A stretch of DNA of 64,000 nt from Chrysomallon squamiferum (Eukaryota > Animalia > Mollusca). This document shows, piece after piece, positions 18,340 to 56,938 of the stretch (the stretch's first letter is position 1; each line of letters starts with the position of its first letter). The stretch is from assembly GCA_012295275.1 (NCBI GenBank), contig CM022669.1, positions 18,786,001 to 18,850,000 of the forward strand, written 5' to 3'. The position numbers were made by a program, and so were the translations under genes. The notes under the pieces are model-generated. The model was not told where the DNA came from. It did no database searches and saw only the letters and a list, made by a program, of their open reading frames with translations.

Positions 18340-21300
18340 ATGACGTTGCTGCTGATTCTCATCTCGTTGCTGGGGCTGACGTTGTCAGAGATCGTGCTGC
18401 AGGAACATGGCTACCTGCGACTTCCTGGGCGGGGCGGAAGTAAATACGTGTTCGGCATGAACGCCGCCACAGAGAGCACCTACGACACACGACATCGCTA
18501 CCTCTACGTCATAGGTGTGTGACGACAACAACTGCAGCAGCAACCACCAATAACAGCAGTAACAACAACAACAACACCAATAATAATAATAATAAATATA
18601 AATGTGTTTAGTGTTGGAAACACAAAACAAGAATATTTATTTATTTTATTTTATTTTATTTTATTTTGTTTTATTTTCGAAACAGAAATTGACGATCCAG
18701 CTCAGCTTGATATTGTTGTTGTAGTTGTAGCTGTTGCTGTTGCTATTATTACTATTATTATTATTATTATTATTATTATTATTATTATTATTATTATTAT
18801 TATTATTATCTTCTGATCCATGGGTGTTATGACTGAACGGTGAAATATGAATTTATATATACCTATAGGGCAGTTTTACAAGAGCGACTTCCACACATTT
18901 TGGGCAAAGATACATGCGAGCGATGCACACAGTAATCACGCCATTTCTGTTTTACACAGGAACCGATGAAAAGGTTTTACATCAAGTTCGAATCAATTCC
19001 AACGGCACGTACATGTGGCCCGAGCTGGTCCACCACTACGACCTCCCCGACATCGAAGACGGAAATCCTCTGGACGTTGAGGTTTGTTACAACTATCCGA
19101 AAGGATATTTCGTGATTTCGTTCGAGGGTAAGGATGACGAAAGCAGCGGCCATGTTAATTTTTACGATCTCCCCACCTCCGACGGCGCACCTCTAAATAT
19201 GATTCAGAGACGTAAGTGATTTGTGTCTTTCTGTTTGTTTGTTTGTTTGTTTGTTTGTATATTTGTTTGAATATTTATTTGTGTATTTATGTATTTGTTT
19301 GTCTCTTTGTTGGTCTCTCTGTGATTTTTTTTTTTTTTTTTTTTTTTTTTTTTTGGCTGGCTGTTTGTTTATTGTATTTATTTATTTATTTATTTAGTTG
19401 TTCCTTTGCTGTTGTTTTCATTTTCTGTTTTGTTTGTTTGTTTGTTTGCTGATTTATTTATTTGCCTATTTATTTCTTTGTTTAAATGTTTATTTATTGT
19501 ATATATATATCATTTTATTTATTTATTATTTATTTATTTTTTGTTTGTTTAATTACTTTTTATTTATTTTATTTTTTTTTTATTTATTTTTTTTTTATTT
19601 ATTTGTTTATTTTATTTTTTTTTTTTTTTTTATTTTATTTCAGTTGTCGTTGGCGCTCACCCTGAGAATCTGAGGTTCACGCCCGACTGCTCCACTCTGC
19701 TGGTGTCAGACGAGGGCGTCCCGTATCTTCAAGATGGCGTCAAGGTTGACCCCGAGGGTGAAATAAACATCATTGACACAGCGAGTTACGACCACTCGAC
19801 CCTGGGATTCTCAGTCAGGTGGAACAATGACCAGAACGCCCAGCAGTGAGTACTACATCGTACTGTTCAACAAAAACTGAAGTAAAGAGTGTTGAGATCT
19901 TGTAATAGATGGTTGAAGTTAACGTAATGTCAGATATTACTAATTTATTCTTTACTTATTAGTACACCTTAACGCAGGGGTCTTAAACACAAGGAAAGAA
20001 AAGGGTGATTAAGAGGTCCAATGGGCCAAGGATAATGGTGTGGAACTGGGATGAGTGGATGCTATAATTAACATTTTATTGAGTATCAGATATTATTTTC
20101 TGTAATGTGGCAAGACTGTGACAATGACCGAACTATGTTTCATGCAAGCAAAGAGATGATCGTGGGCCACGTGTAATTAGTCTGTGTGTGAGACTCCTGC
20201 AACAATGGACTTTTTTTAGATGTTTAGTGAGACAGTCACAATCAGTTTTCAGCGTTTCTTTCACCTCACTGCGCTTTTATCTCACATCACTGTTCTCCAC
20301 ATTACAGCTTGATTTTGTATCTCTGTCGTCATTTTTTCTGTGGATTTCTATCCCATAATTAATTTGCCACTGGTTTACTGCCTCTGTCATTCACACAGTA
20401 ACTTGCTTAGTCTTTCATTTACTCATTTATATGATACTATAACGTACTAGTTACATGTATAAGCCTGCAAGATAGTTAATCATCCTGATCATCATTAACA
20501 ACATCATCATCATCTTCATCATCAGTGACCTCATCACCTTCATCTCCTTTTACAGAGATCTAATTAACAGAGGTTACAGGTATTGGATGAAAGACGCTGT
20601 TTCAACATTTTCTCGTAACGTTGAGCCAGAATACATCTCAGTCAAAGATGATGGTTCACAGGCCTTCATAACTCTTCAGGTAAGAATCCATCATCTTCCT
20701 TCATATCTATGTAACATATATTGTCTGAACATGGACGCGTTATCTGGCAAATGAGAGAGAGAGAGAGAGAGAGAGAGAGAGAGAGAGAGAGAGAGAGAGA
20801 GAGAGAGAGAGAGAGAGAGAGAGAGAGAGAGAGAGAGAGAGATTAGATTGTTACTATAGTCTTAAGATATGAGTTTTATCGTGATGATCAATCGAGTAGT
20901 TGGATCTGAGCAAAACAAAGATGGAATCTTCAGAGAGTAACCAGCTATTTTTGTAATTTGGCAAACCAAATAATACAAAAAGCTATATTTCTGGTCAGTA
21001 CCCAAAAATATAGAAATGTATCTAGTTATCATACTTTATCACTACATACAGTGATTGTTGTGTGTATGTGTGAGTGTGTATGTGTGTGTGTGCGTGCGTT
21101 TGTGTGCGTGTGTGTGTGTGTGTATGAGTGTGTCTGTCAAACACAGATATTTCGGGGCACGAAAAGATGTTAACTGAGATATCTCAAAGTTAAAGCTATG
21201 ACGATATATTACATTTACTTCACCATTGTCTGTGATAAGAAAAATCGGTGTATATTTGAATTAAACTATTTATCTCGTTCACTTGAAGGAGAACAACGCT

Positions 21301-54800: not shown

Positions 54801-56938
54801 ATTTTATTTTATATTTTTCAGGTGTTTTTATAAAAAAAATCTAGGCTACAATCTGGAGAATGTCACATTTAATAAAATGTCCTATTCTGACAAATAAATA
54901 AATTATCACTTCCTCTATGTTTCCATTCACCTTTCACAAATGTCAAGTATACTGGGCTGAGCTATTCATGCTACAGCCAGTATCCTTAGATTTTGGATTC
55001 CACACAAACCTTAACACTAACACTTAAATTTCTTATATATTTTTTGTGTAAGGTGCAATGTAAAATTTTGCGCGATGATGAGTGCGATCGTCCATTTTAT
55101 TGGTTACATTTCTTTGTTTCTTTCAGCCGGATTCCGTATCAACATGTCTTCCAGAAACATCTACTCCTTTCTCCAGTCCGAGACGCTGGGCTCGCTGAGG
55201 TGGGCGGTGGACAACAAGACGTACCTCGTGACCACGCACACAGGCGCGTTCAGAACGTACACGTCTGCCAGAAATGGTATCGACTTTCAAGAAGGAATTC
55301 GAGGTGCACTCTTCGAAGGTGATCTTTGTCCCCACATATTTTTGTTTAATGTTGTTGTTTGTTGTTGTATTTTTTAATCAGCAACTTGTGATTAGAAAAT
55401 GCCTTCATACTCATAGTTAAAGACTGTATAGTTGATGTTTACTCTTCTTTTTTTTTTTTTTTTTTTTTTTTTTAGACTATTGTTATTATTATTATTATTA
55501 TTATTATTATTACTATTACTACTACTGTTTCAGAAGACAGATTAGATAATACTGCCGTACCTGTTTCTGAAATGAAACAAAACATAATCCTAGGTGCGTC
55601 TGAAATTGTGAGTCAACTAATACATACATACACACATACACAGACACGCACACATACACATACATACAGACACACAAACACACGCATACATACATAACCA
55701 CACACGTACATCCATATACACATATACACACATGATACTTATATACACAAATACATGCATACATACTTAAATAAAACAAAATAAAATAAAATAAAATAAA
55801 ATAAAATAACAGAAAGAACTTAGGCTGCACAATAAATATTTAGGGGTTTTGTTTTGTTTTTATTCTCAGGAAGAATGTATTTCAGTAACAACGAAATCGC
55901 TTCTGATGGGTGGGATTCGATTTATCACAAATTTAGAAAAATCTATGCATTTGGCGGACGAAGTTTTGGTATAAGTACAACTGAAAACGGAGGAATTAAC
56001 TTAGTGTGGGAAAGCGGAAACAAACTAGCGTCAGCGGTTGCCAACGGTAGACCGGAAGTATTCAATGGCGACTGTAGTAATCCTTCGATGGCGCCATCTA
56101 GCGAATTTGACAGACGATCACCTCATATGGTAAGAATTATGAAAGGCATTCTCTTTTTATTTTTTCCCCTCTTTTTTCTTTTCTTTTTTGTTGTTTTAGT
56201 ATTCGGCTTTTTAAATGTACTTTTCTACGATTTTTTTTCTTTTTATCATTATTTATTTTATTTATTTATTGTAGATCAATCTTGTTATTATATTATTATA
56301 TTTATTTATTATGATTATGATTATGATTTTTGCTATTATTATTGCTATTATTATTATTATTATTATTATTATTATTATTATTATTATTATTATTATTATT
56401 CCACACATAACATTTCTTCCTTTCGTTTATTTATTCTGAAGGGTGTCGAAGCAAAGTCCTTAGCTTTGACAGTTTACAAGGGTGAACAGCTCGCCATTAT
56501 TGGCAGTGGGAGAATGGGTGGACTGTGGGTCTATCGGTTTGAACCTAACTTCGACGGAACTATATACGCCGTGGAAGAAAGTTTTATTCGTCCTGGAAGG
56601 GTAGACGACTCGTGGTTGGGGCTCTATAATAATGCTGACCCGCTGGATATTGGACTTGGAAGAATAGTACAGTTGCTGTAAGTTTGCTTTCTGAAATTCT
56701 TCAGTTGTACGTTTCTGGATTTTGTTGCTGCTGAAGAAATGAAATGAAATAAATAAATAAATAAATAAATAAATAAAATAATAATAATAATAATAATAAT
56801 AATAATATATAAAAAGTTGGTTTGTTGTATTGCAGGATGATAGAGAACCCGAATGATGATGCTGACAGAACAGTGGTCGCTCTCTGCGAGGGTCTTGGAG
56901 TTATTGAGTTCTTTAAACTTTCTACTACAACAGCATAA
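51863..56938 (+). CDS. msp130-like: MSP130-like secreted protein, copy 5 (subfamily B; 582 aa)
   Basis: Exons 51863-52046, 52400-52675, 53183-53351, 53728-53857, 54266-54404, 55127-55318, 55534-55593, 55870-56129, 56442-56677, 56836-56938 (1749 nt, open). Signal peptide MFSSSTLLIFLTVMSCADA. Clear paralog of copies 3-4. 5' UTR exon donor at 51136. Confidence 0.92.

What the first reader, a model, noticed from the sequence alone, without database searches (positions are those of the whole stretch)
18340..56938. Tandem array of five intact secreted MSP130-like (bacterial choice-of-anchor I) genes: candidate biomineral/matrix toolkit
Seen: five same-strand genes of 559-582 aa, each with a signal peptide and a probable upstream 5' exon. 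They share the intron-phase series 1,1,2,0,1,1,1,0,2, and all frames are open despite heavy microsatellite invasion of the introns. Established: MSP130 proteins are skeletogenic-cell proteins of sea urchins with a patchy distribution in other calcifying animals. They are homologous to bacterial alkaline-phosphatase-associated choice-of-anchor I beta-propellers and are proposed to be horizontally acquired. Inference: this is a lineage-specific local expansion deployed in shell, sclerite or other extracellular mineral matrix. The ORF track hides it because exons are short.
Basis: partly seen in the sequence, partly recalled or inferred. Interest (0 to 1): 0.85.

Follow-up and report, generated by a model that had tools for sequence, protein, structure and literature searches.

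The report
Five tandem snail MSP130 propeller genes
Five intact neighbouring genes, likely from a deep-sea vent snail, encode members of the known skeleton-associated MSP130 family; the cluster is old rather than a fresh expansion, and three of the five have lost the acidic residues predicted to bind metal, so they likely work as secreted matrix binders rather than calcium carriers.

Summary
Five same-strand genes splice with GT-AG introns into open frames of 559, 559, 579, 582 and 582 aa with signal-like N-termini. Four share the stated phase series; gene 2 has an extra intron. All are MSP130/choice-of-anchor I seven-bladed propellers. Gene 4 is spliced in RNA contigs. The closest relatives are Gigantopelta aegis proteins (66-78% identity), so the host is probably a peltospirid vent snail.

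'Lineage-specific expansion' is only partly right. The array holds two subfamilies, each with limpet members (single origin rejected, p-AU 1e-11); gene 2 has a Gigantopelta ortholog; only genes 3-5 look like a peltospirid radiation. Such expansions are published for most calcifying bilaterians.

The extra finding: 11 acidic positions, near-invariant in bacterial homologs and mostly kept in urchin/brachiopod-type MSP130 (mean 9), fall to 6, 6, 1, 0 and 2 here, as across a mollusc clade. This argues against a canonical metal site in genes 3-5. A mineral role is unproven: published peltospirid hard-part proteome tables show no MSP130 trace, while one expression table holds an unverified scale-epithelium lead. 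Verdict: new member of a known kind.

The parts
18340..24258 (+). g1, MSP130/choice-of-anchor I gene, 559 aa, 10 coding exons: 18340-18514, 18960-19211, 19644-19845, 20556-20679, 21289-21406, 21735-21911, 22499-22558, 22924-23162, 23496-23722, 24153-24258. Keeps 6 of 11 ring acids.
   Evidence: 6 of 9 scanned exons match NF038117 in colinear order; tree
26864..34439 (+). g2, 559 aa from this ATG (561 aa with the probable upstream ATG), 11 coding exons: 26864-27029, 27612-27741, 28091-28221, 29167-29365, 29901-30045, 30492-30624, 31594-31764, 32124-32180, 33168-33382, 33613-33842, 34337-34439. Keeps 6 of 11 ring acids.
   Evidence: 5 of 10 scanned exons match NF038117; 78% identical over 555 aa to Gigantopelta P0004
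25759..25761 (+). Probable true start codon of g2 at the end of an upstream exon, followed directly by a GT donor
   Evidence: sequence; adds the two residues by which ortholog P0004 is longer at the N-terminus; not shown by RNA
27742..28090 (+). Extra phase-2 intron found only in g2
   Evidence: both flanking exons match P0004 at 79-81%
37571..42601 (+). g3, 579 aa, 10 coding exons: 37571-37745, 38232-38507, 38855-39023, 39384-39513, 39702-39840, 39962-40153, 40412-40471, 40822-41093, 41877-42112, 42511-42601. Keeps 1 of 11 ring acids.
   Evidence: exon 8 matches NF038117 at 2e-8; 70-72% to the two units of P0001
44493..50083 (+). g4, 582 aa, 10 coding exons: 44493-44667, 45182-45457, 46040-46208, 46462-46591, 47114-47252, 47815-48006, 48446-48505, 48703-48974, 49131-49366, 49984-50083. 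Keeps 0 of 11 ring acids. Spliced RNA contigs seen.
51863..56938 (+). g5, 582 aa, 10 coding exons: 51863-52046, 52400-52675, 53183-53351, 53728-53857, 54266-54404, 55127-55318, 55534-55593, 55870-56129, 56442-56677, 56836-56938. Keeps 2 of 11 ring acids.
17017..17056 (+). Candidate 3' end of the non-coding first exon of g1 (donor after 17056); similar candidate donors after about 36599 (g3), 43704 (g4) and 51136 (g5)
   Evidence: donor-like sequence seen by eye; unverified

Best explanation
This is an old tandem cluster of five intact MSP130-family genes whose products are predicted secreted seven-bladed propellers, likely acting as non-enzymatic binders in the extracellular organic matrix laid down by a vent snail's hard-part-forming epithelia. 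Shown: gene structure, family, splicing of g4, purifying selection, two subfamilies shared with other gastropods, loss of conserved acidic residues. Predicted: the fold (modelled on the g2 ortholog), secretion without a GPI tail, and that the lost acids line one face of the propeller. Inferred: the bacterial ancestor uses that acidic ring as a metal site in phosphate scavenging; g1 and g2 keep about half of it and may still bind Ca2+; g3-5 have lost it, carry Arg/Lys at two neighbouring blade starts, and would bind anionic matrix partners (sulfated or phosphorylated glycans or proteins) rather than chelate calcium there. All five keep one Asp-x-Ser-Asp loop that could still hold an ion.
For: Gene models and open frames. 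Family. Ortholog model pLDDT 93, pTM 0.93; best structural matches are seven-bladed propellers, Z about 30, rmsd 2.4-2.5 over about 290-300 residues. Tree: g1+g2+Gigantopelta P0004+Patella P0009 95/92; g3-5+both P0001 units 100/100 on a 0.94 stem inside a 99/99 group with Patella, Haliotis, Littorina, Batillaria; one origin rejected p-AU 1e-11. pN 0.16-0.20 against pS 0.71-0.75 among g3-5; 10 of 11 exonic differences in public contigs of g4 are silent. Ring acids: bacteria-type mean 10.97 of 11 (columns were chosen on them), canonical-clade mean 9.0 (20 rows), other mollusc-clade mean 3.1 (22 rows), g1-5 = 6, 6, 1, 0, 2; loss is selective against other conserved columns in g3 (p 0.007) and g4 (p 0.004). 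Positions fall at starts of first strands and ends of second strands of blades. 25 of 39 long bacterial-type homologs carry a second phosphoesterase domain. MSP130 proteins are reported from mollusc and brachiopod shells and from biomineralising cells (PMC11878542, PMC6368272, PMC4536745). Unverified lead: two neighbouring scaly-foot snail gene models, one labelled 'Alkaline phosphatase', are very highly expressed in scale-secreting epithelium.
Against: No tissue data tie these five genes to mantle or scale tissue. In the peltospirid hard-part proteome tables (168 + 178 + 156 proteins) no row names MSP130 and none of 12 'Equ2' BLAST rows is the land-snail MSP130 shell protein. Selective acid loss is not significant for g5 (p 0.16), g1 or g2. 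The 3D position of the ring is inferred from strand order, not measured, and only the g2 ortholog was modelled. No catalytic or binding activity is known to me for any choice-of-anchor I domain. MSP130 also occurs in non-mineralising animals (PMC4897951; amphioxus in PMC11878542). The species of the window is not established.
Confidence: 0.45

Rival explanations
1. All five are calcium-handling shell-mineralisation proteins as proposed for sea-urchin MSP130, binding Ca2+ through loops or N-glycans and ending up in the carbonate shell.
For: Family association with calcifying bilaterians and predicted Ca2+ sites near blades 4-5 (PMC11878542); proteins are acidic overall (pI 4.7-5.1), carry 1-3 N-glycan sequons and keep the Asp-x-Ser-Asp loop; urchin Ca2+ binding was traced to a glycan, which would not need the ring.
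Against: The one named shell-matrix protein in my tree (Novocrania shell protein 2A) lies in the canonical clade with the ring intact, not in the clade of these genes; no GPI-type tail; no trace in peltospirid shell proteome tables.
Confidence: 0.2
2. They are secreted proteins of mucus, gut or gland with no skeletal role, for example microbe- or glycan-binding propellers in a symbiont-bearing snail.
For: Ring loss is common to the whole mollusc clade including the shell-less sea slug Elysia (P0093, 0 ring acids); MSP130 occurs in non-mineralising taxa (PMC4897951); absence from hard-part proteome tables.
Against: Published tissue studies place MSP130 in biomineralising cells wherever examined (PMC11878542); the unverified scale-epithelium lead.
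Confidence: 0.22
3. At least g1 and g2 are active secreted metal-dependent phosphoesterases that clear phosphate-bearing crystal inhibitors or scavenge phosphate, keeping the inferred bacterial function.
For: 25 of 39 long bacterial-type homologs are fused to 5'-nucleotidase, PhoD, PhoX, PhoA, metallophosphoesterase or phytase-like domains; Atlas clusters are named 'Alkaline phosphatase family protein'; top Foldseek row is a propeller phosphotriesterase, 5hrm, but only at TM 0.45 and tied with WD40 proteins; g1/g2 keep 6 ring acids.
Against: 5 of 11 ring acids are gone even in g1/g2 and 9-11 in g3-5; activity of the domain itself was not found in print; fusion shows pathway context, not catalysis.
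Confidence: 0.1
4. A recent, species-specific expansion, possibly after a fresh transfer from vent bacteria or symbionts.
For: Bacterial homologs exist at 25-30% identity; g3-5 group together at 90/87 apart from the two Gigantopelta units.
Against: Nine shared intron positions/phases, nesting within mollusc genes, near-saturated synonymous sites, Gigantopelta orthologs, single origin rejected.
Confidence: 0.03

Closest known systems
Gigantopelta aegis LOC121378825 (XP_041363096.1, P0004) and LOC121388815 (XP_041376258.1, P0001)
   Same: P0004 is 78% identical to g2 over its length; P0001 is two consecutive units 66-74% identical to g3-5, probably a fused model of two tandem genes; both are listed with the same longest contig. 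Same ring states (6; 1 and 2).
   Different: Annotated only as uncharacterised; no g1 ortholog was returned by my searches; three units here against two seen there (limited search, not a genome survey).
[quoted passage not shown]
   Same: One clade with the five genes (99 SH-aLRT; 100/99 against four canonical rows), about 560 aa, signal peptide, mostly no tail, eroded acidic ring, several paralogs per genome.
   Different: 28-40% identity only; g3-5 sit on an unusually long stem with six-to-eight-residue insertions.
Canonical bilaterian MSP130 (sea urchin msp130/rel1-7; Diadema P0027, Novocrania shell protein 2A P0025, Branchiostoma P0037, Physella P0049)
   Same: Same domain and fold, nine-intron gene plan in number (PMC11878542), lineage-level duplications.
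   Different: Usually GPI-anchored in echinoderms (Table S1), acidic ring largely intact (mean 9 of 11), pass the NF038117 cut-off (327-358 bits) whereas P0004 (230) and most of the mollusc clade do not.
Bacterial choice-of-anchor I domain (NF038117 / PF22494)
   Same: Homologous seven-bladed propeller, E 4e-86 to 1e-39 by profile.
   Different: No introns; ring invariant; often fused to phosphoesterase domains and sorting signals.

Membership tests
MSP130 (bilaterian) | Choice-of-anchor I domain spanning the mature protein | tested here: met
   14 of 46 scanned exons match NF038117 colinearly; orthologs P0004 (110 bits) and P0001 (78 bits) pass the Pfam PF22494 cut-off of 32; spliced proteins score E 4e-86 to 1e-39 on a bacterial-only profile
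MSP130 (bilaterian) | Groups with named animal MSP130 proteins, apart from bacteria | tested here: met
   50 animal-type rows form a 100-supported clade against 10 bacterial-type rows; neighbours named 'mesenchyme-specific cell surface glycoprotein'
MSP130 (bilaterian) | Seven-bladed beta-propeller | tested here: met
   Model of the g2 ortholog pLDDT 93, matches to seven-bladed propellers Z 27-31, Atlas TM 0.89 to a mollusc MSP130-like cluster. g3-5 not modelled.
MSP130 (bilaterian) | Signal peptide | tested here: met
   Hydrophobic N-terminus in 5 of 5 by hydropathy; no dedicated predictor available
MSP130 (bilaterian) | Nine conserved intron positions of bilaterian msp130 | tested here: inconclusive
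   Nine introns with shared phases among the five; 4 of 9 fall in the identical column, the rest in indel-rich loops. Not mapped onto the published positions (figure not held).
MSP130 (echinoderm type) | C-terminal GPI anchor signal | tested here: not met
   Proteins end within about 10 residues of the last strand, no extended hydrophobic tail. Also absent in 6 of 7 oyster entries of Table S1, so not required for the family.
NCBIfam NF038117 at curated cut-off | Whole-protein score of 300 bits or more | tested here: not met
   Orthologs P0004 230 bits, P0001 228 bits over two units; 9 of 10 mollusc-clade proteins tested also fall below, so the cut-off marks the canonical type
Bacterial/canonical choice-of-anchor I core | Ring of invariant Asp/Glu at blade starts and B-C loops (defined here, post hoc) | tested here: not met
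   6, 6, 1, 0, 2 of 11
Shell or sclerite matrix protein | Expressed in mantle/scale epithelium and recovered from hard-part matrix | tested here: inconclusive
   Run tissues are coded; proteome tables show no label or BLAST trace; expression lead cannot be tied to these genes
Ca2+-binding or phosphatase protein | Measured binding or hydrolysis | not testable with these tools
   needs recombinant protein

The most novel reading that the evidence does not exclude
The choice-of-anchor I propeller is an unrecognised multi-metal phosphatase; molluscs turned a duplicated branch into pseudo-enzymes by stripping its acidic ring; and in peltospirid vent snails the ring-less, partly charge-reversed g3-5 subfamily radiated and was co-opted as a major secreted product of the epithelium that builds non-carbonate scales, breaking the assumed link between MSP130 and calcium carbonate.
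Probability: 0.15. Interest if true: 0.72.

Novelty: new member of a known kind. Interest (0 to 1): 0.33.

Why it matters
As a gene array it is ordinary for a calcifying mollusc. Its value is as a test set for an open question: no MSP130 or choice-of-anchor I protein has a measured activity or a solved structure that my searches found (PMC11878542 says Ca2+ binding and knockdowns are untested). One 39-kb locus holds paralogs with 6, 6, 1, 0 and 2 of the 11 conserved ring acids, a natural series for asking whether the ring binds metal or hydrolyses phosphate, and whether ring loss tracks a move away from carbonate mineralisation.

Tried and rejected
No whole genome is held, so copy number elsewhere and synteny were not checked. 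RNA support was obtained only for g4 exons 6-10; g1, g2, g3 and g5 and all 5' exons remain without RNA evidence. Run X4 (same study as X1/X2) gave no cover of g4 exons; this proves nothing about tissue specificity. Single-sequence fold of P0004 failed (pLDDT 36) and was not used. No solved choice-of-anchor I structure appeared in sequence or fold searches; the phosphotriesterase row is not distinguishable from WD40 rows. [quoted passage not shown] The label 'tandem-95 repeat' of the second scale-expressed model was not explained: 0 of 30 homologs scanned matched a model of that name. Six short peptide terms found nothing because the proteome file holds no sequences. The Lottia shell proteome main text has no MSP130 term. 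No tRNA or Rfam match in the window. Searches of earlier scan notes by place, sequence and a multi-word query returned nothing. A search of shorter proteins with the second unit of P0001 gave only two unnamed fragments.
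Full report
Observation. I read the region base by base and spliced the exons by coordinates. Five + strand genes emerge, all introns GT-AG, no internal stops: g1 18340-24258 (559 aa), g2 26864-34439 (559 aa), g3 37571-42601 (579 aa), g4 44493-50083 (582 aa), g5 51863-56938 (582 aa). Exons are 33-60% GC against 31% for the window. 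The phase series 1,1,2,0,1,1,1,0,2 holds for g1, g3, g4 and g5; g2 has one more phase-2 intron inside the second exon. Four of the nine shared introns fall in the same alignment column in all five genes, the others in loops with indels. All five begin with a hydrophobic stretch and none has a long hydrophobic tail. Each ATG follows a splice acceptor, so upstream exons are likely; for g2 the upstream exon probably carries the real ATG.

Expression. A run search with g4 listed four runs. On 47770-49690, RNA contigs of X1 and X2, one study, cover only exons: one 762-nt contig runs through exons 6-9, the 48006-48446 joint is GT..AG, and a loose end at 49366 continues with the first letters of exon 10. 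Of 31 listed differences, 11 are exonic, and 10 of these 11 are silent. Tissues are coded. The other four genes have no RNA evidence here.

Family. 14 of 46 scanned exons match NF038117 in colinear order: g1 6 of 9, g2 5 of 10, g3-5 1 of 9 each; Pfam PF22494 agrees more weakly. A profile from 70 bacterial-type homologs scores the spliced proteins at E 4e-86 to 1e-39, one from 20 canonical-clade rows at 3e-108 to 2e-61. The closest database proteins are from Gigantopelta aegis: P0001, two units 66-74% identical to g3-5, and P0004, 78% identical to g2. I therefore infer a peltospirid vent snail; the species is not established. The next relatives, at 28-40%, are named 'mesenchyme-specific cell surface glycoprotein' in Haliotis, Patella, Littorina, Mytilus, Argopecten and Elysia. 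P0004 folds with an 80-row alignment at pLDDT 93 and matches seven-bladed propellers; the Atlas gives TM 0.89 to a mollusc MSP130-like cluster and places P0001 in the same family by features.

History. Identities are 40% for g1-g2, 67-74% among g3-5 and 24-27% between the groups. In a 60-row quick tree (50 animal-type, 10 bacterial-type rows chosen from 171 fetched proteins; fragments, near-duplicates and most bacterial rows left out) all five lie in a 30-row clade whose named members are all molluscs, apart from a canonical group holding Diadema, Novocrania shell protein 2A, Branchiostoma and Physella. So the two subfamilies probably predate the split of limpets from other gastropods. g3-5 group at only 90/87 against the Gigantopelta pair, so the triplication may be species- or family-level. 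Synonymous sites among g3-5 are near saturation (pS 0.71-0.75) with pN 0.16-0.20: old copies under purifying selection.

Mechanistic clue. Eighteen acidic columns are at least 95% identical in the 70 bacterial-type rows. Canonical rows keep 14.8 on average, g1 and g2 keep 11, g3-5 keep 6, 5 and 7, while keeping 23-28 of 38 non-acidic invariant columns. Eleven of the acidic columns sit at the start of a blade's first strand or the end of its second strand in the model, which in propellers is one face around the central channel (established knowledge; not measured here). There the counts are 6, 6, 1, 0, 2, against 9.0 for canonical rows and 3.1 for 22 other mollusc-clade rows; the set was picked after seeing the alignment. 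g3-5 have Arg or Lys at the sixth blade start and just after the seventh. Loss is selective for acids in g3 and g4, not significantly in g5, g1 or g2. In bacteria, 25 of 39 long homologs (39 of the 44 bacterial-type hits of about 780 aa or more; the five longest were left out for size, and three of those show nucleotidase matches) carry a second phosphoesterase domain; an earlier unchecked scan note on a PhoX fusion points the same way. I infer an ancestral metal or phosphatase site that this mollusc clade has eroded, almost wholly in g3-5.

Mineral role. For: the family is reported from urchin skeleton and from mollusc and brachiopod shells (PMC11878542; PMC6368272; PMC4536745). In Supplementary Data 5 of PMC7142155, genes high in scale-secreting epithelium include two neighbouring models, CsqKR_Scaf44_36.18 'Alkaline phosphatase' (61,792 against 3,804) and 36.15 'tandem-95 repeat' (24,766 against 1,783). 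The first label is also used for bacterial clusters of this family, but ordinary alkaline phosphatases carry it too, the second label was not explained, and I cannot tie either id to this window. Against: in PMC11871041 no shell or sclerite proteome row names MSP130, and the 12 'Equ2' BLAST rows do not include the land-snail MSP130 shell protein (21150 in the table, Equ21250 in the text of PMC6368272); I did not confirm that this protein was in their database, their insoluble fractions gave no proteins, and the file is cut. MSP130 also occurs in non-mineralising animals (PMC4897951).

Comparison with print. PMC11878542 reports duplications in almost all calcifying bilaterian phyla, nine conserved introns, the seven-bladed barrel and at least two ancestral mollusc genes; its Table S1 lists 7 oyster, 4 Mya, 5 Owenia, 6 amphioxus and 8 urchin entries, most mollusc ones without GPI. 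The array is thus a new instance of a known pattern. I found no paper describing this cluster or the ring loss in ten searches; subscription papers are not covered.

What I saw of each paper. PMC11878542: parts 1-4 of 7 of the text and part 1 of 5 of the supplement. PMC11871041: passages, section 7, parts 1 and 15 of 400 of supplementary file 3 and term searches; two supplementary PDFs could not be read. PMC7142155: passages and term searches of 12 of 13 supplementary files. PMC6368272, PMC4897951, PMC4536745, PMC7142153, PMC13425148: passages. PMC3374290: term search, no occurrences. Ettensohn 2014 and Szabo and Ferrier 2015: not seen, known only through PMC11878542. Unseen supplements could hold tissue data on these genes.

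Verdict. Real, intact, expressed (g4) MSP130 array; an old two-subfamily cluster with a younger triplet; likely secreted non-catalytic matrix binders; mineral role unproven. New member of a known kind, interest 0.33.

Noticed in passing
window:18676-18803: Intron 1 of g1 holds an 87% identical copy of the 3' part of g2's short exon (32147-32180) plus following intron sequence, without a working donor: an orphan exon fragment from a local duplication.
   Followed up: partly
window:25759-25761: g2 probably starts with a lone ATG at the end of an upstream exon, followed by a 1.1-kb phase-0 intron.
   Followed up: partly
window:10008-16000: Exons of a major-facilitator transporter on the + strand upstream of the array (MFS_1 E 1e-7); SLC22-like is my recalled label.
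   Followed up: no
window:58100-59084: Ribosomal protein S16 exon on the - strand (PF00886 E 5e-24), likely the mitochondrial S16 gene, ending close behind g5.
   Followed up: no
window:60560-64000: Start of an AAA ATPase gene on the + strand, head to head with S16 (PF00004 E 3e-12); proteasome subunit PSMC3/Rpt5 is my recalled label.
   Followed up: no
window:3756-4847: Two tandem copies (92% over about 630 nt) of a unit made of a CATA microsatellite and about 120 nt of unique sequence; no tRNA or Rfam match.
   Followed up: no
P0001 (Gigantopelta) and P0163 (Mytilus edulis): Database proteins with two and three consecutive propeller units; in P0001 the second unit begins with its own signal-like peptide, so published 'two-barrel' MSP130 proteins may often be fused models of tandem genes.
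   Followed up: partly
bacterial-type hits P0022-P0148: 25 of 39 long choice-of-anchor I proteins carry a second phosphoesterase domain of at least five different families, and the domain has 18 near-invariant acidic columns: it looks like an uncharacterised phosphatase module.
   Followed up: partly
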